A stretch of DNA of 64,000 nucleotides from Amoebophrya sp. A120 (Eukaryota > Protista > Dinoflagellata), in the NCBI GenBank assembly GCA_905178155.1, contig CAJINV010000001.1, positions 15,562,142 through 15,626,141 on the forward strand. The letters are read 5' to 3'. Position 1 is the stretch's first letter, and each line of letters starts with the position of its first letter. Position numbers and translations under genes: made by a program. Below are positions 1-64,000 of the stretch, one piece after another. Under the pieces are notes generated by a model that was not told the DNA's origin, did not search any database, and saw only the letters and a program-made list of their open reading frames with translations.

Positions 1-3000
1 GTGCGAAGATCAATACTTTTTTCCTGCGTTTGCAAAAGAAGGTGGTAGAAGTGTGCACAACGAGGCTCGAAGAAGAAGGCGCTTCACCTGTCGTGACCAT
101 CGACAAGCTAGCTTCCCGGGTGTTACGAGACCTCGAGCACGAGCTTGGACGTTTCCGCACGACCGGGAACGCCGGGGAGGACCCAAACGCAAACGCGAGC
201 GCTTCTGTTTTATCGTCAGAAAGCATCGGGACAGCAGATGAACCTGTGAAAGAAAAAGAATCAAACCACGTAGCAGCCGCCCAAGCAAAGGCTGCAGCGC
301 ATAACTGGAACTACGAGCTAGCCGGAACGAGTTTCGACTCTTGGTCGTTTCTGTTGACGACTATGAATCCACAAAGTTTTCCCGGGGGACTACAGCAGGT
401 ATCTCGATTTCCTTTGCACACTTTTATGTTGGTCTTGTTGCGCCGAAGCAAGGCCGCGCAAGTCATAGTTTACCATAAAAAGCTCATCCGCTAAACTCAC
501 ATTCTAGTGCCCAGAGAGATCATCACGAGAACCATTCACCTCTTGAAGAACCACTCTTCTCAGATTGTCCGCGCCATGGTGATTTACGTGACTGGGAGCG
601 CGTCAAATTTTCCCACCGAAGAGAAAAGGAAAGTCCGTTCCTCACCGGACGAAAAGGTCTTTTCTGTTCGCATGGGCGCGATGGGTAGTAGCGAGCTGCT
701 GATGCATTGGACCCGGTTGATTTACGTGAGCGCCATGGAGGTCATGCCGGAACTCGCTCGCGTCGTCGCGTTTTCCTCAGTCGTGGAGGATGATGGGACT
801 GATGCTTCTGCTTGCGCGCCAGACCACATCAAGAAGAACCCGTCGCAGGCGAAGAGGCGTTTATCCACAGTCGACTTGTCCATTGCTCTTGCCAAGAAAG
901 TTTCGTTTTCTCGCCCCGACGGCTTTCCACCGAGTTCCGACGATGAAGGAAATAAACCGAGAACGGACTTTGGAAATAAAGCCATACCAAAAACGGACAG
1001 CGAATCTACTTCAGCACGCAACGTTGGCGCAGAAGGCGACTCAGCAGCCTTTTCACTTCTAAAGCGATCCGCTGGTGCTTGGAAACCGTCTGGAAAGTGG
1101 CGACAAAAAGAGAAAGAAGGCAACAGCAGGGAAGACAGCCAGGCCGCGGTGCGTGCCAGCGACGTCAGGGACGAGACTGTAAAAATGCGCAGTTGTGGCA
1201 CGACGTCCACGTCTAGCCCGTCAGCCATCAGTGCCTCGTTTGACGCGACCGCTTCTCCCGTGTCAACATCTGAAACACCTGCGTCGCGCCGAATTTCCGA
1301 GGCGGCCACCCAGCTTGACGAAAATGCACTTTCCTTTTTCGAGCAGTTACACACCGACACCACGATGAAAGCGTCCTTCGGCCCGGCAACTGATACCGTC
1401 ACTCCCTCGACGAGGACGGTGGCAGCGCCGGGGTCAAAACAGATTCGTCCCCCACCCGGCTTCGAAGCTGCTGAAGGCGGACTGAGTTCTAAGGAGTATG
1501 TCAAAAGAACTTCATCTTCGCTGTGTCGCTCGCCGATTAGCACAACCACCACAACTGCAGAACCAGGTGGTCCTCGTGAAAAGTTTTCACTGTCCTCCTC
1601 TCCCGCAGACAGGTCAACGATCGCGCCTTCTTCACCGGCACCGTCATCGGTTTTGTTCTCGTCCCCGGATAGTTGTAACAACACTAGCTGCCCAAGTATT
1701 ATCAGCTACACTTCTTCCACTTCGTCGACTGCATCTCGTGTTCTACTTGGCCCGGTTCCGGTCTCTTCCTTCCTTGCGGACGAAGACGATCTGCCTAGCG
1801 AGTTTGAGCTCGTGCCGGTTCTCGAGAAGAATTGCCAGGCCGCGGGGGAAGGACCCGACGAGGCCGCAAGCAAAGCCGTGCAGCACAATTCTAAGAACGG
1901 AGCCTGCTCAAAGTTGTCAAGTGACGAATTATCTGCACGAACAGAAGATGAAAACAACTCCGGCTGTTTCGTGCAGAAGGTCCTCCAGTTTCTCCGTGCC
2001 ACGATGACGTTTGATGTGGAGAGGTGCGGCGCGCTTTGGCAGGAACTGGAAACTTTATCCGCGAACGATTGGCACATTCAGAACGATTGGTGCATCAGCT
2101 TCCAGTGGACCGAGAAGAGGAAATGGCAGGGCGGAGACCTGGCCTGCTTCTTCGTGGCGGTGTTGGCGCAGGTGGTTTCCGACACGGATATCAAATGTAA
2201 AAGTGTCTGGGTCCGGAAGAGTGCATGTTTGTCATGCTTGTCTGGCATGACTCTCAAATCTGTCACGCACGTTACCCAAGAGCATTTTTCTGTCATGCAG
2301 AAACGCAGTTTGTCATGCATTATGCATAATAGGCAACACCTAGAAGCTCAGAAACCTGTCATGCTGCGCCAGCACTTCTGGCCTCCTCATGATACGCCAC
2401 CCAGCACCACAAGTGTCCAGACCCAGACATTTTTGCATTTGATAACGGAGACCTTCGAGCGACACGTCGACCTGGCGGCACAGGGCCGGTTGATGCACAA
2501 AAGCAACAACACGTGGTGCAACGAATACACCAGCGTGGGAGCAGCTACAACGCACTCAGACATGTTGACCAGCACTGCTAGTACGTCGTCGAGTCGCACC
2601 GGTGGTTTTGGTGGTGGTCGAGGAAGCTACAACTACACCAATCTGCCCCCTGAGAGCGCCGGGGTGAGCGGAACGAAGGCCAGCAAGGTAGTTCGGTTCG
2701 TGAAAGAGGTTTTAACCAAGTGCAAGAAGCAGCACAAGAAATTCCTCACGCACGTGAATCTGGAGATGCTGCTCAGCTGTGACCGCGATTTATCCGCTTA
2801 CTACGGGCTCGGACAAAAATCTCCTGCCTCAACGCCGTCGAATAAAGCCGAGCGGGCAAAAATAGATGCCAGCGTCCATGACCACGACCAAACAAGGCAC
2901 AGACGCGGCGGCCCGAGTGTGCTCGAAATCGGTTCGGGAAACTTCTCTTTCGCGGATTCCTTTACGCAGAGTGCGAAATTTCGGGGACGGTATCTCGAGG

Positions 3001-15057: not shown

Positions 15058-18000
15058 ATGGGTGGTCGCAGAGGATCTTCCGCTTCCCGCAAGTCTCGCT
15101 CGCCGTCTCCGGCGCCGCGCAAGGACAAGGACCGCTCCCGCTCCCGTTCCCCGCTCGATCGCCGTCCTGCCAAGTCCCGCTCCCGTTCCCGTGGCGCGAC
15201 GGTATAATGTGGTGCTTCTCGATGTCATCTCTGATGTCCTTACACTTAGTGTTGCTTTTTGCGCCTCTTCTTTGATGTACGAAGGGCAAGGGTACAAAGT
15301 AGAAATAAACGATTTAATTTCGAGATAAAGAAAGTGAAACGCAAACAAAAAAAAAACGCACTTCACAAAAATGAAATACAGAAAGGGGATGAACCGCGGA
15401 GAAAGGGCGGCTTATGGATTGCAAAAATGTCTGGGTCTGGAAGATTGCAACTTGTCATGGTAAATCTGAAGCATGCAAAAATCTGTGTTGCATGAGTGGC
15501 AAAAGCTGTCCACTTTTGACCAAGTTGGAAGGGAGTTTCTCATGCCGGACCGGCATGGCGGAGACCTCGCAGAGTCTGCCATGCTAAGTCCCGCATTCCA
15601 GACCTCATGGGTCATAGAAAATCTGCATGACAAAATCTACACTTTTCCAGACCCAGACACTTTTACATTTGATACGGCTACTACAAGTACAACTTCGATG
15701 AGAAGGAGGCCACCAGGACACTTTTCCTTGCCAATATCCTGAGTAAAAACGTCCCCACACCAGAGTCAGGATGGGGATTTTGCAACACAAACCTAGGAGT
15801 TTAGTGAGTCACGCATGACAAATTGCAGGCTGTATTGTAGTGCAGTTTAGCAAGGGAAGTCGCATTACAAATCCCTCTGCTCATCCTGTTCACAGCATCA
15901 CAAATTCCAAAACACGACTGGAAATGGCTCTCATGGGGATGCGCGTTACAAGTCTTCCTGTCTTTGCAAATCTGCATTACAACTCTGGCGTGGGGACGTT
16001 TTTACTCAGGATAGCCAACATCGCCGACTCAGCGAACGAATTCGACGTCCAGGACTTGTTCAGCAAGACGCTCGGCTTCGATGTCAACGAGGTATCATCT
16101 ATAAGGAACGATGCGCATTACCATTATAAATTCCTGTTGCAGCTTCATGATGTTGATCTTGATGTATGACAAACAATTACTGCGAGTGCGACGAACCTCA
16201 TGATAATGAACCTCCTGAGTCCTGCACAGCGCAGACACTGGGTGATTTTCTTCGCACGAGTTACTCAATTGTTCTTTAAATTTATGTTCCTTCTTGATTT
16301 CTACTTTGTCTTTCTCTTTCTTATCAGGTCTCGCTCCCGCGATCGCCGTCGGCCCGGACTCACCGTGGTTACGGGTTCGTGCACCTGAAAGATGACCGGG
16401 ATGTGGACGATTGCGTGAAAAAGGCCAACGGATACGAATTGCGCGGAAAGCCGCTCAAGGTCGAGGAGAAGCAGGTATTAGAAATATTTCCGTAAAAAGT
16501 TCTAGGGTCGTTAGCAGAAACACCAGAATGGGAATCAAGAAACCGAAGGAAAAAGCGACGCCCGTGCCACGGTCTTCGTCTTATGGTCATGCCCTATTGA
16601 AGTAGAAAGAGAAACAGGGAATGAATCAATCGCATATCAACAAAAAAACACAGTCCCGACCGCCGCGCTCGAAAGGATTCAAGAAGGGTGATGACTACGG
16701 GAGGGGTACCTATCGCTATTGCTATTTTTTCTTTCATACAACGCCACACGCAGGCTTTACTTTTTTAAATCGCTAGTATCGAAGAAGCTCTTTGTTCATT
16801 TTACCCTGAAGACTGCGACCTCAATTCTCTATTTTTCGGTAATCAACATCAAAAGGCCGCCGTGATAGCCGCGGGCGTGGAGGTACTACGTTGAAAATTT
16901 CAAGAATAAGAAAACGAGCAAAATTTGGTGTCTAGAATTCAAAACGGTAAGGCGTCGGGCGCCCTGTATTTTGTTTTTGTTTTGGATAGCGCGCGGCAGG
17001 TCGCGAGGCATACTACTTCAAAACCATCAGAAGCAGAGGACGCGACACGCTGAATGTGTTATCGCGGCCGCCTACTTCTCGATAAAAAAAAACGAGAGGC
17101 CTGGCATGGAGCCGGCTCACGAAGACGGGCCGAGGGCTACCAACCTCACGCACCAAACTTACTAGTTAGCTAGGTGTGGCCGTTGCTGGAACATTCATAA
17201 CCGGGGCCCAATGGGCTCGGGCCGTTACGTGGTCCGAATAGGCGAGCTGCAGCAACGCCTCCACAGGCAAGCGAGAAGCGGCCCGAAGCTACTGAAATAT
17301 TAAAGCCAGCTTCTGCAAGGGTGCCCGAGTAAAGACATCGCCAGGGGACTCGATACAGGTACTCTTTTTCTGCATTGCGCCCGTGATTCACGCAAAATTT
17401 TGCTATTCCCACTGGATAAAATTCCAAGAATGAACAGGGTCGACCCCTTCCGAGAGCCCTAGTTTTGGGCCATTCCTGAAACGGGCTTTTGCCCTATTCC
17501 CACTTGATAAAATTCCAAGAATGAAAAAGTAGGCCCCTCCGGCGACCCCTGACGCGGGGGGTCGCCCAGAGGACTTTTTTGACCGTTTTGTGCTCCAAAA
17601 ACGCACTTTTTGACGTTCGCCCACTTCGGAAATCGATTTTGGAGCCACGCGGCGCCCCAATTCTGGACGCCCAAAATGCAGCCCGTCGGGGAGGGCAGTC
17701 CCGCCCTGCTAAGGGTCCGGATTGGGCGCGCAAATTGGGCGCACTACTTGCGGCGCCGAAAAATATGCTCCGACACTTGGCCAACTCTGGCAAAGACGTC
17801 GCGTATCTGTAAAGCGCCCCACTTTCATCCTCCGGCCAGCTGCTTGCCGGCGTCAAGAAGAGCCGCTTTGCCGGGCTGCGGGGGCTCTGCCGGTTCCTCT
17901 CCAAGTACAAGTGGCGCCCCGTGGCGATGGTTGGCGAAATGATGTCCCGGCCGGATGCAACCCGGCCGAGCCCAAGGGCGCCGCGTGCTGCTTCTGCGCT

Positions 18001-18225
18001 GCCGGTCGAGCCGCCGGCGTCGTGTTTCGCCGATCTTGGAACCCCTCCCGGCCGCCCTAAAGACTCTAAAGGCCGAATTTTGCTCGTTTTCTTATTCTTG
18101 AAATTTTCCACTCAGTAGGAGGCCACCGTGGGGACAAGGGATATGGCCGCGATGACCGTTACGGGAGCAGCAAAGGTGGTCGCCGGAACAGTCGTCCGCG
18201 TCGCGACAGCCGCCGCCGGTACTAG
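15058..18225 (+). CDS. SR-rich RRM protein (Tra2/SR-like splicing factor)
   Basis: Exon 1 encodes MGGRRGSSASRKSRSPSP..RSRSRSP. RNP2 LFLANI forms only after removing the 15735-16013 element; RNP1 is RGYGFVHL near 16363-16387. An R/G/D-rich tail ends at TAG 18223-18225 after removing the 16884-18117 element. Confidence 0.85.
15413..15674. mobile_element. Introner, family A (subfamily A2), 262 bp
   Basis: TIRs TATGGATTGCAAAAATGTCTGGGTCTGGAA / TTCCAGACCCAGACACTTTTACATTTGATA; direct repeat CGGCT at 15408-15412 and 15675-15679; contains an in-frame stop; removal gives KGG|YYKYNF. Confidence 0.92.
15735..16013. mobile_element. Introner, family C, 279 bp
   Basis: 32-bp TIR TATCCTGAGTAAAAACGTCCCCAC(A/G)CCAGAGT with one mismatch; direct repeat GCCAA at 15730-15734 and 16014-16018; removal restores RNP2 LFLANIADS. 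Confidence 0.93.
16884..18117. mobile_element. Long introner, family D, 1234 bp
   Basis: About 42-bp TIR TACT....GAAAATTTCAAGAATAAGAAAACGAGCAAAATT; direct repeat GGAGG at 16879-16883 and 18118-18122; removable as GT-AG intron 16883-18121, giving RGRG|GHRGDKG. Confidence 0.88.
17403..17525 (+). repeat. Two 32-bp direct repeats inside the family D element
   Basis: CTATTCCCACT(G/T)GATAAAATTCCAAGAATGAA at 17403 and 17494. Confidence 0.85.
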
Positions 18226-20501: not shown

Positions 20502-21533
20502 GAGTGGGGTAACAATTGATTCAACTAAGTCGGAGTTTGCCGCGGGCGGAAACTTCCTCCTTCAGGAAATCGAAGAGCCGAGAACCCCGACCCGGGGTCC
20601 TGCCGTTACAGCACGCGAAAACCTTATGAGAAAATGCACTTTTGTAAACGGATTTTTGCACTTTTGGTGTGTTTTTTTTCGGGTGGGCATGAGCATCCCG
20701 AAAAAACATGGCAAGAGCTACTTTTTATGCATGACAGTTGCTGTTTATGCATGACAGATTATCCCTTTCTGCAATAAAAAAAGCAAACTTTTCTTCCTTT
20801 CCTGCAAAAGCAAAAAAAAGCAAAAGTCCGCACTTTTCATTTGGAAAAAGTGCAACCTTCTTCAGCTTCGCCTTCACATTCCCAGCTCGGGGGGGTTGCG
20901 CGTTCGCACGCAAAAGCCCGCACTTTCAAAAGTGCAATCTTTTTCAGCTTCATTCCCAGCTCGGCTCGGTGGGGTTGTGCGAATTCCCGGCTCGGGGGGT
21001 TGCGCGAATTCCCAGCTCCGGGGGTTTCGCGTTCGTTGCGCGTCTGGCGAACGCGCAACCCCCCCGAGCTGGGGATTCGCGCAACCCCCCCGAGCCGAGT
21101 GTGAATGCGAAGCTGAAAAAGGTTGCACTTTTTCCAGATGAAAAAAGTACTCAAATGAAAAATGCGGACTTTCGCTTTTTTTTGCTTTTGCAGGAAATGA
21201 AGGAAAATTAGTTTTTTTCAATTGCAGAAAGGGCTAATCTCTCATGCATAAACAGAAACTGTCATGCAGAAAAAACAGCATTTGCCATTTTTTTTCGGAA
21301 TGCTCCCCTGAAAAAAAAAACACGCCAAAAGCGCAAAAATCCGCTTACAAAAGTGCACTTTCTCATACGGTTTTCAGATGCTGGAACGGCAGGACCCCGG
21401 GTCGGGGTTCTCGGCTCTTCGATTTCCTGAAGGAGGAAGTTTCCCGCGACAAAGTCCGACTTAGTCGTCCGTGCGGCCGGACGGACGACTAAGTCGGCGA
21501 TCCGACTTAGTTGAGTCAATTGTTACCCCACTC
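20502..21533. mobile_element. Foldback MITE (PIF/Harbinger-like non-autonomous element), 1032 bp, intergenic
   Basis: Ends GAGTGGGGTAACAATTGA / TCAATTGTTACCCCACTC; arms imperfectly complementary for about 400 bp; TAA on both sides (20499-20501, 21534-21536). Confidence 0.88.
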
Positions 21534-21719: not shown

Positions 21720-24700
21720 ATGTCGATGTGGCATTGTTTGTTTTTCTTCTTCCTCCGGCAAAACAACTACCTGTCTCAAACACTCGTACACGCAAAGATC
21801 CGCACGCATCGTGCGCTCTGCCTGAAGCGCGTGGAAAAAATTGCGCTCGACCGAGAGGCCAGTGAGAAGTATTTTGATTTCCTGGTTCGCAACAACATGT
21901 CCGACGCCCGAGCGGACCGCCCGCGCGGTTTAAAGGACTACTTCAAGTACTACAATACTTCCGAGGTATCCACAGAAAAAAAACCATCCCCATCCATTTT
22001 TCGCATGACAAGCACAGGATTTTATGCGTGTTTTGCATGACAAACAGGAAGATGGGTGTTTTTTCCTGGATGCGAGGACTTGGTATCGTACACCGCCACG
22101 CCGCCGAGTCTTGCGCCCATGCTGACCTGCGTTGATTTGGAAGACGCCGTGCTGTTTAACCAGGAAATGGCAACGGCGTGTTCACCCGCAACCTGTAGCC
22201 TGTTCGACGCGGCCTTGAAGTTTGTGCCGCCGAAAAGCCTGCTGCACTCCGCGGACGGAACCGATTTGACGCAAAGAAAAGTAATATCGGAAGCGGACAA
22301 GGTGGAGCAACAGGTCTTGGACAACTGTAAGGGGGAGGACACGCGGCAGACTCTACGGAAGACCAGCAGTCCATACGCGTTCGTGTCCGTCGACGAAATA
22401 CTGCGCGGGGGCTTTTGCGGCAAGAACGTAGATGATGGCTCAGTCGAGGGAAAGGAAGCAACAACTTCGCCGGACTGGGCCACCAGTATCGTCACCGCCG
22501 TGCTGAATTTGGGGAGCCGCGAGAACAACAGCGAGGAGGATTACAAGTCGTTCCACTTGCATGGCCCCAAAAAGCTGCACACCTACAAGACGAATGAAGA
22601 GCCCTTGCCATCTACGGCTACAGGACGAGGAACCTCGTCGACGTCGTCTCTCTTATCGGCAAAAGTCACCGAAAGCGGTGAAATACATGTAAATGCCGCG
22701 GGCTCGGAATCTCGATTGGGCCAAGGAACATCCACAAACGATTTTTTGCAGGTGTTTGCTGAAGAAGCCGATGAACCAACTGGACACGACGGAGACCATG
22801 ATGCTGACGCGTTCTTTTCTCCTACTGCATCTTTTTTCTCAACTTCTGCGGAAGTCCTTGACAAGGACGAGGACTACACGCATGGTTCATTCTTGGAGCA
22901 TCGTAGTTCCAGAAGCGCGGAGCGAAAGCAGGAAACCGAAACCAGCAGAGAAAAAGTAACAAAATGGTCCAAAAGAAGAGCTTCATCTACTTCGTCAAGA
23001 ACATCGTCAGCGTTCACACAGAAGATGAAAAAGCACCGCAAGTCGTTCTTCATGGATTGGCTTCGTGGTACGAAAAAGCCGCCCCCGCCGCATTGCGACC
23101 TCGAGGGCTTCGTGCAAGCGTTTCGGAGCGCCTTGTGCCAGGACGTCCACAGAGGGCGTGTTGGTCCACCGACGGACGACGCTTCGTTGGTCTCGATCCT
23201 CGAGCACCGGGCGCCGCCCACCATCCAGCTCGTTCTAAAGACGGACGTTCTGTACTTCCTAGGCGTGGCGGACTTGACACAGGAGAAGCTACAGCACGGA
23301 AAGGAGGACGGCTCGCGGATTTACTACAACCAGCCGCAGCCCGGCCTCGTTTTCAACGAGATTCAGAATCCGCACACAGTTTTTCAACACGTCTTCAACC
23401 AATGCCCCGTACGTAGTGGTGGCGCAACAGTGCTGGCGCATGTCAACCCTGCGACGAATAATTATGCAGGGGCGCCGTCAGTGCTGTCAACCTCAACATC
23501 AACGGTCACCGTTCCCGTGCCTTACCTCCTCTTGGCGCGTTCGCTGTTTCTAATGGGGAACCCGCGGGGTTCTGTTGGTGATCTATGGAGCTCGCTGGTG
23601 AACAGCTCCCCTCATTCGGCGAGAGAGGCAGAGCTGATGCGAGCGTACGAAACGAAGACAGCGAATCTCTGGCAAGGAAGATTTCTGCACGCGGTGGGGC
23701 AGCGCGAAGCCAGTGATGGTTCCCTGTTATCCACAGTCACCGGGGACTTTCTCAAGAAGGTCGAACAGTATGTGTGGAAGAAAGAATTCCTAGACTCGAA
23801 GCGAGGGGCAAAAGCAGAAGGAGCTGCTGCACTGAAAACTACATCTACTCCGCAGGAAGAGGAAGACCACAAGCAGCTACAAGATTGGGCCCGTTCCCAC
23901 CCTTTGAGACTGCTGGAGTATCTGCACTACCGGCGAGTGTACCGATTCCGCCTTTCGTTCTCGTTTTCCGGCGTCGGTCTCGTTATGGGCAACAAAATGG
24001 TCTCCGAGAAAGAGTCAGCGACCATGCGGGAGATCGAGGTGGATGGGATTTACATTTTTCATCCCGACGTCCTGCTGGAAGTACTCTCTGACGAGGACGA
24101 CGGGGACGAAGAAGTTATCTCAGTCATCGAGTTTGACCACGGCCACAACCGGCACTTTCGTTCTGCACCCTTTCTGCACAAGGAGTCCCGCAAGATGCGG
24201 CCTTGGACGGGAGATTGGTCGAGTTGGTCCCAGGAGGTTGGCGAGTTTTCGGCCAGCATCCACAAAGTCTTCATGACGCTGCAATACTGGATCGAACTTG
24301 CCGGCGCCAAGCCCTACATGCTCGGGCAGTGGAACTGCTTCCAGATGGCACACTTGCTCGTCTACATGTTATTCTTGCCCTTGCACGAAGTCAACACGGA
24401 TTTCCACAGTGACTCGGCTTTCCAAGAAATCCAGCAGCGACTCATTTCAACACAAGCGGCTCAAAGCGAACAAGGACAGGGGGCAGGAGCAGGAGAAACT
24501 GGACAAGCAACAGAGGGTGACGCAAGCGCAACTGATGTAGTCTCCTCAGCGGATCATACCATTACCAGCGGCGCAGCTGCTCCTGCGGGTGCAGTGGATT
24601 CTTCGAACGAGGGTGGAAATGATGCGGAAGGGCAAGATGTACCGAAAACCGAACTGCTTTCTTCCACCGCGTTCGTGGAAATGAAGACGAAGACTCGTCC

Positions 24701-25567
24701 GGGAGCGCGACTCTTCCACGTGCCTCAGCTGCGCAGCTCCGGAAAAAATGATCTGGATACCTGCACTCTAGCCGATCGCAACCGACTCTGGCGGGCGTTC
24801 CTCGGTGAGATCGGTGAACCGCACGACGAGAGTTCCCTTGGGCGCACTGCAGCCGCAATGAAAACCATCTCCGCCTGCGGTCGCATCGACGAAGGGTCCT
24901 CGCAAGGTGAAGACCGCGCCAGTCTGATGTCAGCCCAAGTGATTCTTCCTGCAGAATCACTCACGCTCAAGAGGGAGACCGACGTGGTGGAGAATTATCA
25001 ACTGCAATTTCCGAATCACTACGCGTCGGGTCCGTCCTTTGAGGTGGAGTATCCGTTGCAAATGTTCGCGAATATATCCACAGAAAAAAACCCATCCACA
25101 TCCATTAATCCACTATTTGTCATGCAAAAAATGGATGTGGATGGGTTTTTTTCTGTGGATAGAATATGACCATCGACTACAGCGTGTTTCGCGTTTTTTC
25201 GACCGAGGCCCTGCTTCCCGCCGCGTGGAGCGCGAGACTGCAGCTGGTCCAGTTGCCCTTTTTAAGCCGCTTCGATTCGCTGGGAGACCTGCTCGAGATG
25301 GCTGCCAACCGAAACGGGAAACGATTCGAACAGTGGAAGCTTTCCGCCTTGAGGTACCTGGCTCCCGCGGTGACGGACAAACTATCGCATTGGTTCGGCG
25401 ATAAGCACGGGCATTCTGTGTTCGCCATCGGGCTCAATCGGGAACAGGCGAGGAAAGGCATCACTGAGTACATGGAGAGCGACACGCTGGCAAGCATCAT
25501 CAAAGATTTAAAAGCAGAGTATCAAGACCTGCTCCTCTTTCTTCAAGCTTACAAAACGAAAACATGA
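21720..25567 (+). CDS. Large hypothetical protein, possible signal peptide and PPPDE/LRAT-like cysteine peptidase motifs
   Basis: ORFs 21558-22040, 22056-25169 and 25166-25567 fuse in frame on removing the introners at 21967 and 25075 (TSE|DLVSY; FAN|MTIDY). Motifs GIYIFHPDV and PYMLGQWNCFQMAHLL. Alternative ATG at 21558. Confidence 0.7.
21967..22072. mobile_element. Introner, family B, 106 bp (eroded right TIR)
   Basis: TATCCACAGAAAAAAAACCATC... / ...GATGGGTGTTTTTTCCTGGATG; direct repeat CGAGG at 21962-21966 and 22073-22077; GT-AG register 21966-22076; in-frame stop inside. Confidence 0.9.
25075..25161. mobile_element. Introner, family B, 87 bp
   Basis: Perfect 32-bp TIR TATCCACAGAAAAAAACCCATCCACATCCATT; direct repeat GAATA at 25070-25074 and 25162-25166; 92-nt removal corrects a frameshift. 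Confidence 0.95.
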
Positions 25568-29607: not shown

Positions 29608-30257
29608 ACAAAGAAACATAAGCTGTTGTTCATCTACGTCTTAGTTTTTGGCTTTACCATTACCAACGACCCTCCAGCGAGCACGAATAGATAAATGCAC
29701 GATCATCATGTTGCTGTATGATAGATGACAATCAAGGTGAAGTTGAGGTAGATGCGCCTTGATGTCGTACGTAAGTAAGTAGCTTCTTCGACCGAAACTA
29801 AAAAGAGTCACATTGGATTGCGCAGGTTTCCCACGGCTGCGGTTCACTGTCTTGCTGCTACTTACGGTTACGCACCTGAGTGTGCGAGTTTCAGTTTCCG
29901 GAGGCTTTTAGAACCGTGTTCGATGTGGGCGGTTCTTCACGGACTTTTTTTACGACGAATGTGTAATTAGCGAGAGCCACGTCAGGCTGTGCTGGCTGTA
30001 GTTGAGACGAGTTCTAGTACTTCTTCTGCCCTGCACAGCATAGAAAGAGCAGCAGATGAAGCAACACTATCACTAAAAAAATTCCTTGTCAATGTCTAGT
30101 ATGTCGATGCGTACCTAGCTGCTTTCTACTAGAGCTTGGCGCGGATTCGAACTTCATCCCGGTCCGCTTCTGTTTCGGTTTTATGTAAGTCACTTCGTTG
30201 TTCTGGCGAAGAACATTACGCCCCTCGTCATTTATGACCCCAATCCTCGTGAACAAC

Positions 30258-33200
30258 ATGGCGTCCTCGTCCTCTTACGCAACCGTGACCATCAATCTGC
30301 TGGCCACCGGTCGGCAGATTGAGATGCAAGCCTGGCCGGTGACGGAGACCGTCGCGGATCTGAAGCGGAACATTGAGCGGCAGTGCGCCATTGACCAGCG
30401 GCAGATGCGGGTGATGTGCAACGGGCGCAACCTGACGGAGGACTTCGCGACCCTGGCGTCCGTCGGGGTGGTCGACGGAAGTCAACTGGTTGTTGTGATG
30501 CGGCTGAACATGTACAACGAGGTGGCGGGGCAGACGAAAATCCACGGCGTCTCGAAGGACAACTACGGCAACGCGGTCGGGACCAACTTTGACCTGGCGA
30601 AGGACGGTGCGTTCGCGGGCGCCACGATCGCCGTTTTGCACTTGTACACGTTCGGCGGCTTTGACTTTTCGTACCCGCAGAAGGCTTTGGAGTTGAAGGG
30701 GCTCAAGATCAAGCGGTGGACGGAGCTCCCGCAGCCGTTTGAATTGGAGCGGCAAATCCAGGATTGCTGCCAATTGTGGCTGATCAGCAGCATCGAGGGA
30801 CGGTTGGAAGAGTCGCACATGAGTGTCATCAAGGATTTCTGGCACCGAGGAAACGGCGTGTACATCTGGGGGGAAAACAAGCCCTGCTACGAAGACGCGA
30901 ACCGGCTGGGGAAGTATTTGTATCAAATGGAAAAATGTCTGGGTCTGGAAGAATGCAACTTGTCATGCTAAATCTGAAGCATGCAAAAATCTGTGTTGCA
31001 TGATTACCAAAAGCCATCCAGTTTTGGCCAAGTCGGGAGGGAGTTTCTCATGCAGGATAGGCATGAGAGAGAGTGCACAGAATCTGTCATGTTAGGCTCT
31101 GCATTACAGACCTCATGAGTCATGTAAAATCTGCATGACAAGTCTGGCAGTCGATTTGAGGTAGTTGTTACGTGTGGTTGGTCTTTCGGTTCTGCCTGAG
31201 TATTTCCTTTTCAGTCAAATATTTAGTCTTCTGAACTTCGACTTCTTATCCTTATTTCTCGCCTATTTATTGGATGAAGCTAAACAGCGCCTCTGACTTA
31301 TTAATGTTTTTGGCGTATGTGACTCATCCATATATCAATGTGAAGGTCTTGTCGCAGGAGTCAGCATTTTTGTTGCTGTGCTCCTGGTTTTGGCTTTCTA
31401 TATGTTTAGCGAGTTGGAATTGTTGGCTAAGGTTGGCGTAATTTGGCAAAGTGGGATATGTTGGCGTGAAGTGTGTTGGAATCGTGGCCGGGAGATGATG
31501 GTGATGGCACTTCGGTGTCCGCCTGACCTACCTTCCCTGCGTGACAGCCATCTGCGGCTGTTTACAAAGGGGGAGGCAAAGTGTGCCGCACTTCTGTTTA
31601 GCATGACAAGTCTGGCATTCTTCCAGACCCAGACATTTTTACATTTGATAACTTGATAGGGGCGACCATGTCCGGAAACGTACCGGGAGGGAAGGTAGCA
31701 AGTTTGTAAAAGCTGCGCTGAAGCGGCATCATAGGATATGAATATGTGTATGTCAACATGTACATGGAAAATAAAAATACCAACTGCATTCGCATTCCGA
31801 CTGCTCTATTCAACAGCATTTCGATGTTCAGGTCGTGCGCGAGCGTCCCCTGGGTTCTAACAGCGGCAGTGGGTTCGTGCAGCACTTGATCACTACCGGT
31901 CTCGAAACGCTCTTTGAGGGCGTCACCGTTGCCACGATTCACCAGGACCGGAATTTTCACCGCCAGCGCATGATGCCTTTGGTCTACGGTTCCGACATGA
32001 TTCCGGATGACAAGAACCCCGGTGGACAAAAACCAAATTTGGTCACCGCCGTCTACGAGCAGGACGGGCGGCGGCTGATCATCGACACGGGGTTTACCCG
32101 GCTGTACGTCAACTGGGACTCGGCCGGTACCGGACGGTACGTCAGCAACGCGGCCGCGTGGCTGGCGAATTTCGAGCGGTTTCAGCAGATGGACGTACCC
32201 CTGGGCATGCTAGACGGGGGGCAGTTGCGGATGAACCGGGAGGAGGTGACGGAACTGCAGGAAGCGTTTATGCTGTTTGACAAGTCCCAGACCGGGTACA
32301 TCGACATCAAAGATTTGGAGTCCGTGCTCCTCTCCCTCGGGCAAATCGCGACGGCGGAGGAAGTCCGGGACTTGATCTCGGTCGTGACCATCGGGAACCC
32401 CGACGCGGCGCGGTTGAATTTTCAGGAATTCCTCGGCGTGATGAACAGCGCGATCGAAGACAAAAACGCGGAACAGGAGATCTACGAAGCCTTCAAGATG
32501 TTTGACATGGACCGCACGAGAAACATCAACGCGATGGAGCTGAAGAAAGTGATGGACAGTCTGGGCACGCAGGTGAGCCACGCGGACGTGGAGGAGATGG
32601 TGGTGGAGGCGGACCTGAACCACCAGCGGCGGATCAATTACGAGGAGTTTTACAAGATCATGATGGGGAACCAGATCGGGAAGAAGAACGTGAGCAAGGA
32701 GGAGCGCGACCGGCAGGAGAAGCTCGCGGAGCGGCGGCACGGCCGCGGGCCTGCGGCCACGATGGCGCACTTGCGCGCGGCGCAGCGGTGGGACGCGTTG
32801 CGCACGCAGGTCATGAAGGCGGTGCGGCGACACCGGGTGGATAATCAGGAGCAGGTCACGCAGGACAACGCGGAGCTGCTGGATAAACACCGCATCCGAC
32901 ACTTGATTGGCTTGGCACTCACGACGGTTGTGACCACCATCTGCATCGTCGTTCCACTGGTTCTGCAGGGGGCTTTTGAGTCTCAGATGGACGAGGCGCA
33001 CAACCTCCGTGCGCTCACCCACCACGGCAACGCGGTGCTGTACTATGACGAAGCAATGTCTATGGCAGCACGGATGACGGCCCTCACCGCCGCCCAGGAA
33101 ATGCTCGACCCGGTGAACATGGTGCCGGACAGCGCGAACGCCACGAAGAAGTACAATTTGTGCCATTTTGCGCCCCCGGCCGGCACGGAGTACCCGTATT

Positions 33201-35725: not shown

Positions 35726-35854
35726 TTGAAGATCAACCGGGAGGAGGAGCGAGAGCACCGGCTTAAGCATATCATCGCTAATACGTGCATCTGTTTGAAT
35801 GATGCGTTTCTGAGTTTCCCGTTTCTTACGTTTCGAAATTCCGCTAGTAGATGG

Positions 35855-36232: not shown

Positions 36233-36337
36233 AATTACCACTAAGATTTACTTCTGATTGCGAACATTTAAAATTACACTTTGCACCTAATTATCAGCAT
36301 TACAAATTTAGAATCATAAATACCCCAACGACAAACC

Positions 36338-42528: not shown

Positions 42529-42538
42529 GTGAGGGGGA
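42529..42538 (+). promoter_or_regulatory. Polypurine tract
   Basis: GTGAGGGGGA ending one base before the 3' LTR. Confidence 0.7.
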
Positions 42539-42539
42539 C

Positions 42540-48200: not shown

Positions 48201-48923
48201 GCGTGCACCTGAAGGGGCTGAAAGAAAGGGGATCGCTGCGTTATCAGCCTACTCTCATCTGCAACTCGCAAACCAAAGAAACTTCTTTGATACTGGTTAA
48301 GTTTGAGACGCGGCGAGGGCGACATCGCAGCCGTGCTCGTGCATGAGATTGCTGCACATTTGTTGTTCATTCGTGCAGCTTTCCACGGTGGAACGGCAAC
48401 AGCGATGTGCTGAAAAACAAGAGGAAAAGAAGAAGATCTAGCACTATTTTTTCTCCCTGAGCCTAAGTGCACTTGCGCGATACTGCGACGCCGACATGCA
48501 AGGAAAGATCTGGATTTTTTCTCATCCCTTTTTATTCTGGTTTTTCTTCTTTTGCAGTCTCTCACGATCATTGATCACGCTTATGCGACGCTCTTTTTTC
48601 GATAGCGCACCGGCCCCACTGAGGACACGACTGTCACTACGATTTTTTCCAAGCAGCAACAACCATGTGCCTCCGACTAGATCTTTAAGTAAGTAAGTAG
48701 ACGTAGAAAAGACGACAAATCACAGTGACAGACAGAGAGTTTAGTTCTGATTTTTTGATTTTCTTTTTCTCAGCCTGGAAAGAAATTGAAATAACAAGTG
48801 AGTGTAGTCGTCCAAGCTCAATTTCATTTCTTGAGCACGGTATCTCGTACGTTTTGGTTTTTTATTACGTTTGTGTTAGGAGTCTCCGTGCGTAGGCTAA
48901 GCTACGAAGAACGCTCAACCAAA

Positions 48924-50501
48924 ATGGCGGACAAGGTGTTGGGAATGCTCTCAAGGACGGGCATGGCGGCCGCCTCCGTTGCGGCAATACCTGCCTTCTG
49001 CTTGTACAATGTGGACGGAGGAGAAAGGGCAGTTATGTTCAACCGATTTTCGGTAAGAATTATGTAGTTCTCGCCTGGTGTTGCATCAAATTAAGATTAA
49101 CAAGTGTCCTGAACAAAGACGAACGTTGTAAGTAGAAGTGCGGCGGTTGTTCATCTGCTTCGCATTCAAAATTAGACGCGTGTTGATTTTTATGAAGATT
49201 TGTAGTTCTGCACCAAATAAAATTTTAAATTTTTCTACAGGGTGTATCAGCAGTAACGTCAGGGGAGGGCACGCACTTTAAAGTGCCATGGCTGATGTCC
49301 CCTTACATCTACGACATCCGTGTCAGACCAAAACTCATCCAGACAACGACAGGTACTGGACTCTTTTTTTCGATCCGCCGTGTTGTATTCCTATTTGCAC
49401 TACGGTGACGGTGATAGAAAAAGTTCTCAATCTCAAGATAATTGTCTTATTCTTCACCACAAGCGATTGAAAAGCTGCCTGCGGTGACCTCCGATGGTTG
49501 AATATCACGACAGGTACAAAGGATTTACAAACCGTCACCATCCACTGTAGGCTTCTGTTCAAGCCTGACGTAGAAGCTCTCCCGGCACTCCACAAACGGC
49601 TAGGGAGCGAATACGACGAGCGAGTACTGCCGTCAATCGGGAACGAAGTGCTCAAGGCCGTTGTGGCACAGTACTTTTCTTACATTTTGATCCTGTCTCT
49701 GTTTTTCGTGTCCTGTCTGAACTGAAATATGCAGATTTTGGATTCAAAAGAACAAGCGCTCGCTCAGTTCTACTCTGAGCTTTCCGGCAGCACAAAACAG
49801 GTACAACGCCGAGCAGCTGCTCACACAGCGAGAGCGCGTCAGTCAGGAGGTCCGGGATGCCATTGTGCAAAGGGCAAAGCAGTTTCACATCCTGCTCGAG
49901 GATGTATCCATTATCCACCTGAAATACGGAAACGAGTTCGCGCGCGCTATTGAGGAGAAGCAAGTGGCCGAACAGGAGGCTGAAAGACAAAAGTTCATCG
50001 TGCAAATGGCAGGTAAGGCTAAGGACTTTTATTAACCACGCGGAGCAGTGACATTCATTTTGTTACTGATTTGCGTGTTTCTCGAGGCAGGCTCTGGCAG
50101 TTTCAGTTTGTCAATGAGCGACTTCGATGAAGTTCGAGGATTCTCCCAACTAATTACAGAGCAAGAGAGGCAGGCGACAGTGATTCGGTCGGAAGGAGAA
50201 GCAGAAGCAGCGACAATGATATCAGAAGCGCTGAAGGAACACGGTAGAAATGAGAAGATGAATTACTGGAATATTTTTGTTGCTTGATGTTTTCTAATGG
50301 GAGGGATACGTGTTTGACTTTGAAAGTGGAAGCGAATTCTTGATGAAATCTAAATCGTGTGTCAAAACAGGAACCGGATTGATCGACATGAAGAGGATAG
50401 ACGCTAGTAAGGAAATCGCGGAGGTGTTGTCCAAATCGGCGAACATAATGTACATGCCCGGGGGCCAGAACATGCTTCTCAACATGAGTGCTGGACGATA
50501 A
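48924..50501 (+). CDS. PHB1: Prohibitin (PHB1-type), 6 exons
   Basis: [82 protein letters not shown] and [10 protein letters not shown] across GT-AG introns. Confidence 0.95.
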
Positions 50502-57908: not shown

Positions 57909-58970
57909 AAGAACACCGCTGAGGCTGACAGATTTTTTTTTTTGGATGCTAACAGGTGGATGGCTCTGTCAATCCATTAAACCACACGCAAAGTGGTTCT
58001 GGACGAGTTGACGACTGCAATTAGTGGCGAACTCCGCCTCCGTTGAGTATCGGCATCGCAACAACATAAAATTTGAATTTCGTAAAATAATTGCTCAACA
58101 CCACACTCTCACTCAACACAGGAGCTCCCATTTTGGTTGAATGAGCACAAATCGTATTGGGAAGAGCACCAGGAGGAGGCTACACTTGCCCAGCGGCTTG
58201 CAACCAGAACGGGCCAGCCAACACAAGCTCGACGAAGCAGAGAAAAAAGTAACTAAAAACAAGGTGATATCAAACCGGAATCAGCTTGAACAGAAACAGT
58301 TTTTGTTGATATCTTCATGAGTGCTGAAATTTCGTCGTCAACATCGATCAGTATCTATGAAAGACAAAAGCTAGTAGACAAAACCTCAGCGTCGCTGAAG
58401 CTTTGTCTACCTCTACTGCGGAACAGCCAACCTGCATAAGCCCTCACCCTACAATCAAGGGGCAACAATAACATTTAACGAGTGTTCTTGATGTTTTCGA
58501 CGTAATTTGGAACTGATAACATCACTTGGATACATATTGATTTATACATAGTTTTTTTCCAGCGGTAGGACGACCCGAGGAAATTTTCTTTTTCGCTTTC
58601 AGTTTCAGCCAGGCGCCATCTCAACGAACAGACATCAAGATTTCCTTCTCGTCCACGTCGCAGTCGACCCTGATCCTCGACAAAGCTGTATGATCTTTTT
58701 TACCTTCATCACCAGGACCTCCTACATAAAGCTGCTTAAAATTTGAATTTCGTCTGCAACGGACATGATTGTTACTCTTTTTTCACGTCTTACTCTTATG
58801 TTCGGAATAGGATTTATAATAAGCATATATAAAGATACATGTTGATCTACACGCAAAAATTTAGCACATTCTTAGTGTCTGTCCTGTGATGTTCGTTCTT
58901 CGAGTTGCCGATAACGCTGTATGCTTTTACTCTTTCAGTGGTTTCTCCCTGAACAAATCAATCCCAAAAG

Positions 58971-61507
58971 ATGATTGGCGTCCTTCTTGGCATTTCGGAG
59001 TTGGACGACCCGCGGAAGCGGGCCGAGCAGATCCTCCGCTTCGACAAAACCCGGCTGAAAAAGCAGATTCTGCAGACAAAAACCGTCATCGTCCACATGG
59101 ACCTGGACTGTTTCTACGTCGCTGTTGAACGGCGTTTGAATCCCATGCTCCGCGGCAAGCCGGTGGGCCTGTGTCAGTGGTCCCAGCAGCACGCGAGCTT
59201 TCACAACTTGCACTACACGCAGGACCGCCTGATTGACACATTCGGGGCAAGTACCGGAGGTGGTCCTAAAGGCGGGGGGAAAGGAGGCCCGGGTGGACAC
59301 AACGCGGGGATCATTGCTCTGTCGTATGAAGCCAAGGCGGCCGGTGTGAAGCGCGGCATGTTCCTGCAGGATGCGCTCCGGGTTTGCCCGGATATGCTTT
59401 TTGTCGGGATTCCGACCAAATTTGGCAAAGCGGACACCAGCTTCTACAAGGACGCCGGCAGCGAGGTGATGGGCGTGCTCGGGGAGTACGGGGGGACGGA
59501 ACGAGTTTCCATTGACGAAGCGTATTTGGACGTCACAGCAAGATCCGCCGAGGGCTTCGACGAGTGGGTGAAGCGGACGTCGGGGGACATTTTGGCCAGC
59601 GACGCGGCGGATAGGGCGGAGGCAAATGCAACTGAAATTGTTGGGGAGCCGGTTGAGGCCAGCAAAGTGAAAGATGAAGCTCGTCTTGAATTGGGTGCTG
59701 GTACTACTAGTACAACTGGTGCATCAACAGCATCGCGTTCCTCTTGGCACTCTAGACGCGACCACATAGCTGCGCTGCGAGAGGAGCTGCGGCGCGACTT
59801 TGAGGCGTTCTGCGAGCTGTGTCTAACGGAAGATCGACTTGCGGTGCACGGCGTTCCGTTTTTCTCCGACTTGAAATACAGCAAGGAGGCGCGCCAGGCC
59901 GCGCCAGGGCTTCTGCTGCTAAAAGATAACAAGATTGGGGATTTACACAAGGCTGGTGCTGCAGGTGGGCGACAAATTGGCGCATCTTTGGCGGCGACCG
60001 CTGCATCAAGCACGAACACGAAGGAAGAGCAATGCGAAGTCAAGGTATCTACAACTACATTCGAGGCAGCTGATCTGAAAGCTGCCAGCCCGCGTTTGAA
60101 AAAAGTCAAGATAGATGCGGAAAAAGTAGTGCCCGACGTCAAGAAACAAGCTGCAGACGACAGCGACGATGACCTAATCATGTTCGACGAGCAGGGCAAG
60201 CGTGTGGACATCGAATCTATGACAGCAGTTGGTAAAATAAAGTCGTCCGGAGTTCCACCGCCATCCAACCCGAAACTTGCGAAAACTGAAGCGCAAACGG
60301 ATACGACTCACAAGAACGCGAGTAGATCTAATGGTGCGCCGAAACCGGCGCAGCAAAAGAGTTCGCCGCTCCCCGCAGATCAGGACCAAGCTTTTTTCGA
60401 GGAGCTTTTCGAGTTCTACAAACTGGTGAACAGCATGCGCATCTGCTTCGAGATTCAGGAGCGGGTGAAGAAACAACTCCAGCTGTCCTGCTCGCTGGGC
60501 GTCGCCAATACCAAGTGCGTGTCGAAGATTGCGAGCGGCAAGCACAAGCCCTACAAGCTCTCCCTCGTGTTCCCCCTCGGTACGCCGGAGTTCCTGAACC
60601 CCCTGCCGATCAAAGATCTTCGCGGGTACGGCCAGAAGTTGGGCAAGGAGATCTGCCAGAAGCTCAGCGTCGCGACCGTCGGGGAGGTGTTCGCTAAGAA
60701 GATGCGAGTGCTGGACGAGAAGCTGACCCACAAGGTCGCGCAGGAGCTGGGCGACGCCTGTCACGGGATCGACGATAACCCGGTCTGCGCACGGCTGCTG
60801 TCGAAGATCGTGGGGACGAGCAAGCGGTGGCACACGCCACAGTACCTATGAAATGCAAATATGTCCTCTGGGTCTGGAAGATTCTTACTTTTTTCATGCA
60901 TGTCTGACATGACTCGAGAATCTGTGATGCATGGGCAGGAAAGGACTCTCCTTTCTGTCATGCAAAAACGCAGTTTCTCATGCGGAATACGCAACACATA
61001 GCAACTCAAAAATTTGTCATGCTGGGCTGCGTATTGCAGTCCGGCTATCATCCACTTTTTGCATCAGATGTTTCCAGACCCAGACATTTTTGTATTTGAT
61101 AGTACCTGGTGGACAGCAACTTACGAGGCTGGATGGACACACTGCTGGCGGATTTCGTGGAAAAGGTCGCGAAGGAGAAAACAAACCACAAGCGCAAGCC
61201 CCTGCAGGCCGTGGTTTCCTGGAAGAACGTGGCCGGGAACGACGTATCGAAGACGATTGCCGTCGAAAAGCTGACGAAAGAGTTTCTGTTGTCTGATCTG
61301 CTGAAGGGCAGGGACCCGATTCTCAACCTCGGGTTCACGGCGCAGCGCTGGGTCTGTCTCGAAACCGGGGAAGCGTTTAAAGAGGAAGGAGGCCCTGCTG
61401 GAGGCCCGTCGGCGCACGACGAAAGTCTCTTTGTCGAGCGCAAGTGCCCAAGAATTGGCAGTCTTTTGAACAACCACGGTTTCAAGACTCGCACAACGAG
61501 CTGTTGA
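58971..61507 (+). CDS. Y-family translesion DNA polymerase (Pol eta-like); start uncertain
   Basis: IVHMDLDCFYVAVE, SYEAKAAGVKRGM, ERVSIDEAYLDVT and SCSLGVANTKCVSKIASGKHKP; the C-terminal ORF 61109-61507 joins on removing introner 60847-61101 (PQYL|VDSNLRGW). Confidence 0.9.
60847..61101. mobile_element. Introner, family A (subfamily A1), 255 bp
   Basis: TATGAAATGCAAATATGTCCTCTGGGTCTGGAA / TTCCAGACCCAGACATTTTTGTATTTGATA; direct repeat GTACC at 60842-60846 and 61102-61106; introduces an immediate TGA. Confidence 0.92.
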
Positions 61508-62348: not shown

Positions 62349-64000
62349 ATGTCATCAAACCCCCCTGATGAACATGCTCCGCGCTCCACGGACGGGGCAA
62401 ACGCTTCGCCCGTAGGTAGAAGTAGTCGTGCGCCGGATGATGTCGCACAACACTCGTTGCCAACTTTGCTAGAAAAAGAGGAGCCAGCCGCGGCGAAAGG
62501 ATCTGCGACCGGTATGGCCGCGCAGAGGAAGATTTCCGGCACTTTGGAAATCGCACTAGAAGGTAACGACTGCAACCACTTCTCGGCGGCTACCATTACG
62601 GGCGGTTGGTTGGAGGCGACCGATGGTACTCGTTTTGCTCTTTCGCCCGGTGGGAAAATTTCGTCTGTGATCGTGCCGTCTGAAAACGACAAGACGACTC
62701 GTGTAGTCGGTCTGGCCACGAGCCAGAAGGAAAAAGAGAACGAACCCGAGCCCACCCCACCAGAGATCATAGCGAGTGTGAACGAGAACAAACTCCTCCT
62801 GGGCGACGAAAACAAGAACTTCTACCCGGACGAGGATGAGGACAAGAAGAAGGATCACGAGAAAAAGAACAGCCGGGAGTTGGAGGGCCTGTTATTCGAA
62901 GACTTCGACGGGCTGAGCTCAATCGGGAAGAATTCCCCCGGAGATTGTGAGTTGGAGCTGGATGGGGCGCCAGAATTCGAGGAAAGCGAAAAGGTGGAAG
63001 AGAACAACAAGGTCAAGGAAATGCATACAGTGCGCGACGAGGCGAAGACGAAGCAGATGAACGACCGGCACCAGAAGACCCCGGCCGCGGAGGTTGGAGC
63101 ACAGGGAGCGGCCGAGTTGCTACCCTTCCCGAAGAAGCGCGATTTTTTCGCCGGCGAACTGTTAGGGCAGCGCCTGCCCGACCCGACGTTCGCGGCGATC
63201 GACTTCCACGCAAATCCGCCATCTCCGCCGGACACGCGCGAGCGGAGCTGCTTCGATCAGAAGGCCGAAGACGAAAGAGAGGACATCTTCCGGGCGGTCT
63301 GCAACGCGGTCGAGCGGCGCAACGGAATGGGTATGGACCCACGGCAGGGCCTCGGCCCACTGCGCGAGCGGTCAGCGAGCGCAGTGATCACGGGGCGCGA
63401 TGCGTACACACGGACGGAGTGGGATATCCTTTGCCAAGATGCCGCGCGCTCTTCTTCTTGTTCTTTTCTTTCGAAGCGCAGTCAGGTGGTCACGATGGAA
63501 AAACAAAAAGCGCAACGATCGAGCCGCAAGAAATGAAGTGCAAAACTTGCAACGCTCGCTGTTAGAAACCACAAAAATAAACTGCGTGGCCAAATCTGAA
63601 ACGAAAACAAAGAATCACTTTTGAAGAACGAGCAGAAGTGCGCGCGGGTGTTTTTGCACCTCATACAGAAAGATGGACTGCTTTACGAATGGCTGGAGGA
63701 TTATCCACAAAAAAAAAGCCATCCCCATCCAAACTGTAGACTATGTTGCTTTTTGTGCATGTTTCGCGCCACTACTAGTGGTGCGAAACATGCACAGAGT
63801 CCAGGAACTTGCCATGCAAAAAACTCTTTGATGGGCATGGCTCTTTTCTTCTGGATAAGTGTCAGAAAAAAAAGCCGAAGGGCGGCTATTCCCGCCCGAG
63901 AGTCCCAAAGTGCTTCAGTCCGTTCATAAGCAAGTTCGGCGATGAGTACGTATCTAGTGCAAAGGTATCGCACTCGTAGCAATTGCAGTTTGTTATGAAC
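62349..64000 (+). CDS. Hypothetical protein, probably 3' partial
   Basis: ORF 62265-63536 (first ATG 62349) and a downstream exon interrupted by the 63702 element; exon structure not resolved. Confidence 0.5.
63702..63857. mobile_element. Introner, family B-like, 156 bp, degenerate
   Basis: TATCCACAAAAAAAAAGCCATCCCCATC / GATGGGCATGGCTCTTTTCTTCTGGATA; flanks AGGAT/AGTGT (3 of 5 match); a GA-AG register gives WLE|CQKKKPKGG. Confidence 0.75.

What the first reader, a model, noticed from the sequence alone, without database searches (positions are those of the whole stretch)
2184..63862. Introner system: nine TIR elements with 5-bp duplications, six lacking any standard splice register
Seen: nine elements (2189, 15413, 15735, 16884, 21967, 25075, 30921, 60847, 63702) begin with TA, eight end in TA, all have TIRs and 5-bp flanking repeats. 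Removing element plus one repeat restores conserved protein (RRM RNP2, polymerase C-terminus). Sliding the junction across the repeat gives GT-AG only for 16884 and 21967 and GA-AG for 63702. The other six have no GT/GC/GA-AG register, and five of them add stops or frameshifts. Known: inverted/direct-repeat non-canonical introners are reported from Amoebophrya, and to my knowledge their excision mechanism is unresolved. Inference: they are removed precisely by a structure-guided route in which the TIR stem brings the two repeats together.
Basis: partly seen in the sequence, partly recalled or inferred. Interest (0 to 1): 0.9.

Follow-up and report, generated by a model that had tools for sequence, protein, structure and literature searches.

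The report
Hairpin introns cut at fixed offset
These are already-described jumping-DNA introns of a marine parasite that are removed exactly from its messenger RNA without normal splice signals, and two copies with decayed flanks suggest the cuts likely fall at a fixed distance from the element's paired ends, a rule that would make the unknown splicing mechanism testable.

Summary
The window is Amoebophrya sp. A120 DNA (an ORF is 100% identical to an A120 protein), and the nine elements are its published introner elements (Farhat 2021, PMC7789003). Seven have perfect 5-bp repeats, 30921 has 4/5 and 63702 3/5. RNA-like contigs or annotated proteins lack element+5 nt: directly for 25075, 60847, 63702 and a missed tenth element (63425); by length sum, one border or annotation for the other six. 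DNA contigs keep them. The paper calls the splice borders variable or unknown. A cut one base before the TAT end and four bases after the far end fits every case, gives N-TAY starts like the host's GTAY donors (10 of 12), and matches the paper's Table S4 (all 18 commonest non-canonical types have T second). Likely machinery: a relaxed spliceosome positioned by the stem; untested. The register rests on one contig plus a possibly non-independent annotation. The scan noted a similar intron in another genome (e1-7695377).

The parts
2189..2444 (+). Introner element, perfect 5-bp repeat; inferred intron 2188-2448 (AT..GG), in frame without stop
   Evidence: absent from annotated protein P0002; homolog P0003 is continuous across the site; no RNA laid
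15413..15674 (+). Introner element in the SR/RRM gene; inferred intron 15412-15678 (TT..GC); stops if kept
   Evidence: predicted inner mRNA length 382 equals the 382 nt of X1 record 1
15735..16013 (+). Introner element in the RRM start; inferred intron 15734-16017 (AT..CA); frameshift if kept
   Evidence: same 382-nt test
16884..18117 (+). Long introner element (TAC start); inferred intron 16883-18121 (GT..AG)
   Evidence: X1 piece resumes at 18118 and has no depth in bin 17086-17702; 382-nt test
21967..22072 (+). Introner element ending TG; inferred intron 21966-22076 (GT..AG); stop if kept
   Evidence: X1 record 3 piece starts at 22073 and has 561 further letters upstream whose place was not shown
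25075..25161 (+). Introner element, 32-nt perfect arms; inferred intron 25074-25165 (AT..AT); frameshift if kept
   Evidence: X1 record 3 joins 25069 to 25162 with no letter between, 92 nt skipped; fold z -11.3
30921..31650 (+). Introner element (composite, 730 nt), repeat 4/5; inferred intron 30920-31654 (GT..TT); stop if kept
   Evidence: X1 record 6 piece ends at 30917, past the mismatched base, so at least 2 left bases are kept; the far side was not listed
60847..61101 (+). Introner element in a Y-family DNA polymerase gene; inferred intron 60846-61105 (CT..AC); stop if kept
   Evidence: joint 60840|61101, 260 nt skipped, in 4 of 4 runs of one sample; Pfam IMS
63425..63665 (+). Missed tenth element, flanks only 2/5 alike; intron 63424-63669 (AT..GA) or one base right; a GA..AG register one base left is not used
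   Evidence: joint 63423|63670, 246 nt, in 1 of 4 runs; P0001 fits only registers 4 and 5; weak fold, z -1.6
63702..63857 (+). Introner element, flanks 3/5 alike; intron 63701-63861 (TT..TG) or one base right; the GA..AG register is not used
   Evidence: joint 63700|63862, 161 nt, in 1 of 4 runs; P0001 fits only registers 4 and 5
63951..64000 (+). Probable left end of an eleventh element (TAT+7+AAA), right end outside the window; the cut falls before G63950; may instead be an ordinary GT donor
   Evidence: loose ends behind 63949 in 2 of 4 runs; P0001 continues Y-F; motif
15058..18225 (+). Host gene: SR/RRM-like protein, 210 aa, four GT-AG introns and three elements
58953..61507 (+). Host gene: Y-family DNA polymerase
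62349..63949 (+). Host gene of P0001 (annotated A120 protein, 663 aa; first 398 residues lie in the window)

Best explanation
The elements are non-autonomous inverted-repeat DNA transposons of Amoebophrya A120 that are removed exactly (element plus 5 nt) from messenger RNA, likely by cuts one base before the left TAT end and four bases after the right end, and likely by a spliceosome with relaxed end rules. Shown: 5-bp duplication on insertion, presence in DNA, absence from RNA-like contigs or annotated proteins, a cut at register 4 or 5 in two non-slidable cases. Inferred: register 4 everywhere. The element's own TAT/TAC would supply donor positions +2 to +4 (N-TAY, like the host's GTAY donors with +1 free), and the terminal stem would hold the 3' cut four bases beyond its end, standing in for the AG and for the first-last base contacts of ordinary introns. 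One net copy of the target is kept, so any insertion site in either orientation would be neutral, which would explain the spread. The machinery is untested.
For: Removal. DNA retention: X5 contigs run from the flanks 23-38 nt into the elements at nine borders and across the right border of 21967 (table 8). Insertion: 86 of 101 complete copies in assembly JACKZZ01 have an exact 5-bp repeat, none 6-9; only 20 of the 86 offer a GT/GC/GA-AG register in either orientation. Register: 63425 and 63702 allow only 4 or 5 and bypass GA..AG; 30921 needs at least 2; the cut before G63950 needs at most 4 if 63951 is an element; both GT-AG cases sit at 4. Donor likeness: 10 of 12 GT-AG introns of the window have TAY at +2..+4 against 346 of 3493 GT sites, P about 5e-9; at register 4 all 10 elements read T, A, T/C there. 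Farhat Table S4: all nine commonest non-canonical types in A120 are N-T.., all nine in A25 T-T.., none TA.. or ..TA. The stem tip tolerates mismatches at arm positions 4-10 while 1-3 and 11-13 hold. U2, U4, U6 and nearly all spliceosomal proteins are present in A120 (paper passage); in Fritillaria the U2 spliceosome is needed for TIR-derived non-canonical introns (preprint passage).
Against: The two decisive joints come from one contig of one run (X3, 31 letters on the short side, flagged 'between: not known'); the agreeing annotation may rest on the same RNA. X1-X4 are one sample and only guessed to be RNA. Registers 4 and 5 are separated only by 63950, which could be an ordinary donor, and by Table S4, whose junction placement I could not check. 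GT-AG arises most easily at register 4 by chance (7 of 13 GT cases). No enrichment of G at target position 5 or of AG was seen in 36 crudely oriented copies, although a spliceosome might be expected to favour them. No common branch-point motif is evident, a long stem would have to open for U6 pairing (general knowledge), U1 snRNA was not found in A120, and the closest working analogue, Euglena's introns, leave as circles and are thought not to use the usual spliceosome.
Confidence: 0.5

Rival explanations
1. Same fixed geometry, but a protein nuclease reads the TAT..ATA ends and stem, cuts with a stagger and a ligase joins the exons (as in tRNA or IRE1-type splicing, or the unknown Euglena route), giving circles or linear introns.
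For: No constraint on the first base or last two bases at register 4; no selection for GT/AG seen; symmetric signal works in both orientations (22 against 14 copies); U1 not found; Euglena introns have a fixed spacer-stem code and circles.
Against: The 5' cut coincides with the host's own spliceosomal donor pattern at +2..+4, and A25, with unrelated arms, also shows T second; hybrid ends (GT..non-AG, non-GT..AG) are the commonest types in Table S4, whereas they are rare in Euglena. No candidate enzyme was sought.
Confidence: 0.3
2. Removal is precise in length but the register varies between elements or families, as the 2021 paper states; the fit to register 4 here is a small-sample coincidence.
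For: Paper Fig. 3 legend and Fig. S23 legend: borders variable, arms 1-5 nt from the splice sites. Only two non-slidable cases here.
Against: Both cases agree and both pass over a GA..AG register; Table S4 is dominated by N-T starts; slidable repeats alone would produce the reported 1-5 spread.
Confidence: 0.12
3. One reading: the stem aligns two identical 5-nt repeats and the join is made by repeat homology.
For: Seven of nine repeats are perfect.
Against: 63425 (2/5) and 63702 (3/5) lose exactly element+5 nt; perfect repeats are explained by insertion alone.
Confidence: 0.04
4. The joints are reverse-transcriptase jumps across a hairpin between short repeats, and the real mRNAs keep the elements or the genes are dead.
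For: Hairpin plus short repeat is the usual setting for such artefacts (general knowledge); all RNA evidence here is assembled cDNA; retention could not be measured from contigs.
Against: Kept elements would break five of the six genes' frames; removal restores long open frames and a homolog is continuous at 2189; the skip is element+5 even where the repeats do not match.
Confidence: 0.03
5. The elements are cut out of the DNA in a transcribed copy of the genome (ciliate-style elimination) and are not RNA introns.
For: TA-bounded, transposon-derived, precise.
Against: Flat-depth X5 contigs run unbranched from flank into element, so no common empty DNA site in that run; contigs drop rare variants.
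Confidence: 0.01

Closest known systems
Introner elements (IEs) of Amoebophrya sp. A120 (Farhat et al. 2021, PMC7789003; 58 families in Gozashti et al. 2025, PMC12130899)
   Same: Same organism, TAT+7+AAA arm motif, 3-5-nt direct repeats, hairpin model, RNA-validated removal, tens of thousands of copies.
   Different: Nothing in kind. The paper leaves the border 'variable' or 'unknown' and sees no clear dinucleotide signature; here a single register (N-TAY ... +4) is proposed and repeat identity is shown dispensable in two cases.
Euglenid nonconventional introns (Nomura et al. 2025, PMC12501133; review PMC11282704)
   Same: MITE-like origin, terminal stem at a fixed offset from the cuts, slidable repeats resolved by using non-slidable cases.
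   Different: Code is N3CDG...CH'GN5-6 with a purine starting the next exon; here the stem starts at +2 and ends at -5, and 3 of 10 next exons start with a pyrimidine. Circles are reported there; nothing is known here.
Fritillaria borealis non-canonical introns (bioRxiv 10.1101/2025.08.15.670264; review PMC11282704)
   Same: TIR/TSD transposon introns in a genome where most introns break GT-AG; removed by the U2 spliceosome.
   Different: There the ends are mostly AG-AC/AG-AT, supplied by the repeats; here the end bases come from the arbitrary target sequence.
GT/GC/GA-AG introners of Aureococcus, Micromonas, Symbiodinium, Polarella (PMC9860276)
   Same: Non-autonomous TIR DNA transposons that co-opt splice sites from the duplication.
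   Different: They need standard dinucleotides; only 20 of 86 copies here could offer one, and two available GA-AG registers are bypassed.

Membership tests
Amoebophrya A120 introner elements | Located in the A120 genome | tested here: met
   window ORF 62349-63422 is 100% identical over 100% of the query to an A120 protein on a 16.5-Mb contig; window GC 51.4% against 51.2%
Amoebophrya A120 introner elements | Terminal inverted repeats starting TAT + 7 nt + AAA | tested here: met
   8 of 9 left ends fit exactly; 16884 has TAC; the tenth element fits at its right end only
Amoebophrya A120 introner elements | 3-5-nt direct repeat at the borders | tested here: met
   perfect 5 bp in 7 of 9, decayed in 2; 86 of 101 related copies exact
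Amoebophrya A120 introner elements | Removed from transcripts with non-canonical ends | tested here: met
   direct joints for 25075, 60847, 63425, 63702; indirect for the rest
Amoebophrya A120 introner elements | Repeated across the genome | tested here: met
   17,383 X5 contigs laid on 18.5 kb, depth piling up on the elements (not a copy number); families within the window
Amoebophrya A120 introner elements | Assignment to a numbered published family | not tested
   family consensus sequences were not seen; 2 of 118 Amoebophrya rows of one supplement were read
Named DNA-transposon superfamily | Cognate transposase or autonomous partner | tested here: inconclusive
   the one long ORF inside 16884 has no Pfam match; no genome was held to search
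Euglenid nonconventional introns | N3CDG...CH'GN5-6 code with purine exon start | tested here: not met
   ends at register 4 read N-TAY ... ATA-NNNN; 3 of 10 next exons start with T or C
Euglenid nonconventional introns | Excision as full-length circles | not testable with these tools
   only contigs of the same organism were available
U2-type spliceosomal introns | GT/GC..AG ends | tested here: not met
   2 of 10 elements
U2-type spliceosomal introns | Donor context at +2..+4 like host introns | tested here: met
   10 of 10 elements at register 4, 10 of 12 host GT-AG introns
U2-type spliceosomal introns | Lariat and dependence on U2/U6 | not testable with these tools
   needs lariat sequencing or inhibition

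The most novel reading that the evidence does not exclude
Amoebophrya runs a second splicing code on most of its introns: cut one base before a TAY that opens an RNA stem and four bases after the stem closes, with no constraint on the first base or on the last two. It overrides nearby GA-AG sites and needs no matching repeats, so the transposon's own ends act as a ruler that makes every insertion harmless. If lariats are found, this is a spliceosome that has replaced both terminal-base checks by RNA geometry.
Probability: 0.6. Interest if true: 0.75.

Novelty: already known. Interest (0 to 1): 0.5.

Why it matters
The elements and their odd ends are published, but how about two thirds of this organism's introns are cut is open. 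A fixed register turns that into exact predictions: which base starts a lariat or closes a circle, where to place mutations, how to re-annotate slidable junctions. It would also tell whether a spliceosome can drop the G+1 and AG rules altogether or whether a second, enzyme-based route evolved, as suspected in euglenids.

Tried and rejected
No whole genome was held, so no genome-wide count. No listed holder was on record as RNA; X1-X4 are guessed RNA, supported by four exact GT-AG joints. In one search the joint table was swamped by X5 repeats (230 rows not shown), so six elements there rest on the piece table. Retention levels cannot be read from contigs. Frame-restoration test on 55 JACKZZ01 copies (remove element +3 to +8 nt) did not discriminate: 25, 27, 30, 22, 28, 31 fully open. 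Target-site asymmetry in 36 of 86 copies oriented by codon score: G at 5 in 12, C at 1 in 11, A against T at 3 10:10; null. Of 132 loci, 101 gave a complete element; 97 were used for the arm profile after dropping 4 with poor flanks or long span. No match in viral contigs. The 48406-49461 hit of the strict scan overlaps prohibitin exons and was dropped as chance. A branch-point reading of the TTTGAT near the right end fits one family only and was dropped. Searches for a published fixed register listed none; figures of the 2021 paper, Roy et al. 2023 and most rows of the 2025 supplements were not seen and may hold it.
Full report
Source. The window is eukaryotic, genes run on one strand, GC is 51.4%. 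ORF 62349-63422 is identical to an annotated Amoebophrya sp. A120 protein, P0001. Farhat et al. 2021 (PMC7789003; I read the abstract, passages, sections 5, 11, 12, 16, 25, and supplement text including Table S4; figures were not visible) describe A120 introner elements: inverted repeats starting TAT + 7 nt + AAA, 3-5-nt direct repeats, a hairpin joining the exon borders, 29,850 copies, U1 snRNA not found, mechanism open, and borders 'variable' or 'unknown'. Gozashti et al. 2025 (passages; 2 supplement rows) list 58 A120 families, the two rows seen being TIR DNA with mostly non-canonical sites. The system is therefore known.

Observation. The nine elements are real, with the ends given under parts. 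Seven repeats are perfect, 30921 is 4/5, 63702 3/5. A strict scan gives 6 hits against 0-3 in shuffles; long arms, family likeness and fold z-scores of -3.2 to -11.3 for four listed elements carry the case; the missed element 63425 folds weakly (z -1.6). Only 20 of the 86 have a GT/GC/GA-AG register in either orientation.

Removal. Runs X1-X4 (one sample, contigs, RNA by guess; they join four GT-AG introns exactly) skip element+5 nt: 25075 (92 nt, no letter between, X1), 60847 (260 nt, 4 of 4 runs), 63425 (246 nt) and 63702 (161 nt), the last two in 1 of 4 runs, the others having little cover there. For 15413, 15735 and 16884 the X1 contig holds 382 nt between 15200 and 18118, exactly the length predicted if all three and four GT-AG introns go. 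For 21967 and 30921 one border each was seen. For 2189 the annotated protein lacks the element and a homolog is continuous. The flat-depth run X5 runs from flanks into the elements, so the DNA keeps them.

Register. With a perfect repeat the cut can slide over six positions (k = bases of the left copy kept). Decayed repeats fix it. For 63425 and 63702 the contig and P0001 allow only k = 4 or 5, and both pass over a GA..AG register (k = 3 and k = 2) that would give other residues. 30921 needs k of at least 2. The transcript leaves the window before G63950, one base ahead of a TAT+7+AAA motif, which means k of at most 4 if that is an element. The two GT-AG cases are at k = 4 (weak, since chance favours that register). 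At k = 4 every element starts N-T-A-T/C, and 10 of 12 GT-AG introns of the window start G-T-A-T/C against 9.9% of GT sites. The paper's Table S4 lists nine commonest non-canonical types per strain; all 18 have T second and none starts or ends TA, though the text reports no clear signature. How junctions were placed for that table I could not check.

Mechanism. Best reading: the element's TAT/TAC supplies donor positions +2..+4, the stem sets the 3' cut four bases past its end, and a relaxed U2-type spliceosome does the chemistry (0.5 overall; the register alone about 0.6-0.7). For it: donor likeness, hybrid GT/non-AG and non-GT/AG types, a loose stem tip, an almost complete spliceosome, the Fritillaria precedent (preprint passages). 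Against it: no end-base constraint, no selection for GT/AG in 36 oriented copies, no shared branch motif, and Euglena's stem-coded introns, which leave as circles (passages and discussion). A nuclease-ligase route with the same geometry stays at 0.3. Variable register, repeat-homology joining, reverse-transcriptase jumps and DNA elimination are less likely for the reasons listed under rivals.

Limits. The decisive joints are one contig of one run with 31 letters on the short side, marked 'between: not known'; a GT-AG joint with the same mark was exact (57896), and P0001 agrees, but may derive from the same RNA. No genome-wide count was possible. Eight paper searches listed no study that fixes the register; two reviews and the Kv genome paper (passages) do not mention one, and Kv and AT5 have GT-AG introns. 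Gozashti 2022 was read in passages. Unseen figures and supplements may hold it.

Verdict. Known elements, observation largely right, removal confirmed, mechanism refined: a likely fixed -1/+4 cut. Interest 0.5; 0.75 if the rule holds genome-wide.

Noticed in passing
window 20502-21533: A 1.03-kb foldback element with nested long inverted repeats, flanked by TAA on both sides; this looks like a PIF/Harbinger-type MITE (label recalled). X1 depth is near zero inside it and record 3 has 561 unplaced letters upstream of 22073, so it may be spliced from a 5' UTR; not resolved.
   Followed up: partly
window 36320-42280: A 1986-codon open frame with RVT_2, integrase and Pol beta-barrel matches: an apparently intact Copia-type LTR retrotransposon.
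   Followed up: no
window 30189-35065: One spliced frame joins a ubiquitin-like domain, an unannotated middle domain interrupted by element 30921, and calmodulin-like EF hands.
   Followed up: no
window 30921-31650: The element is composite: its first 220 nt match 15413 at 85%, then about 480 nt of other sequence lie between two copies of a short internal repeat; X5 holds a contig that skips 481 nt there. Possibly a nested insertion.
   Followed up: no
window 15413-15497 and 30921-31007 (run X8): About 200 raw RNA reads of another strain carry a related element end joined to one unrelated flank, i.e. a copy kept in RNA at some other locus.
   Followed up: no
window 48925-50501: A prohibitin-like gene (identified by eye from the translation, not by a search) with GT-AG introns, one flanked by an 11-nt direct repeat.
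   Followed up: no
L001-L132: All 132 exact matches to the arm lie in one other assembly (JACKZZ01), with no flank shared with the window: a relative carrying the same family, against the view that families are strain-specific unless it is the same species.
   Followed up: partly
window GT-AG introns: Host donors are mostly GTAT/GTAC with C often at +5 (6 of 12), like the element ends; some ordinary introns may be old introners.
   Followed up: partly
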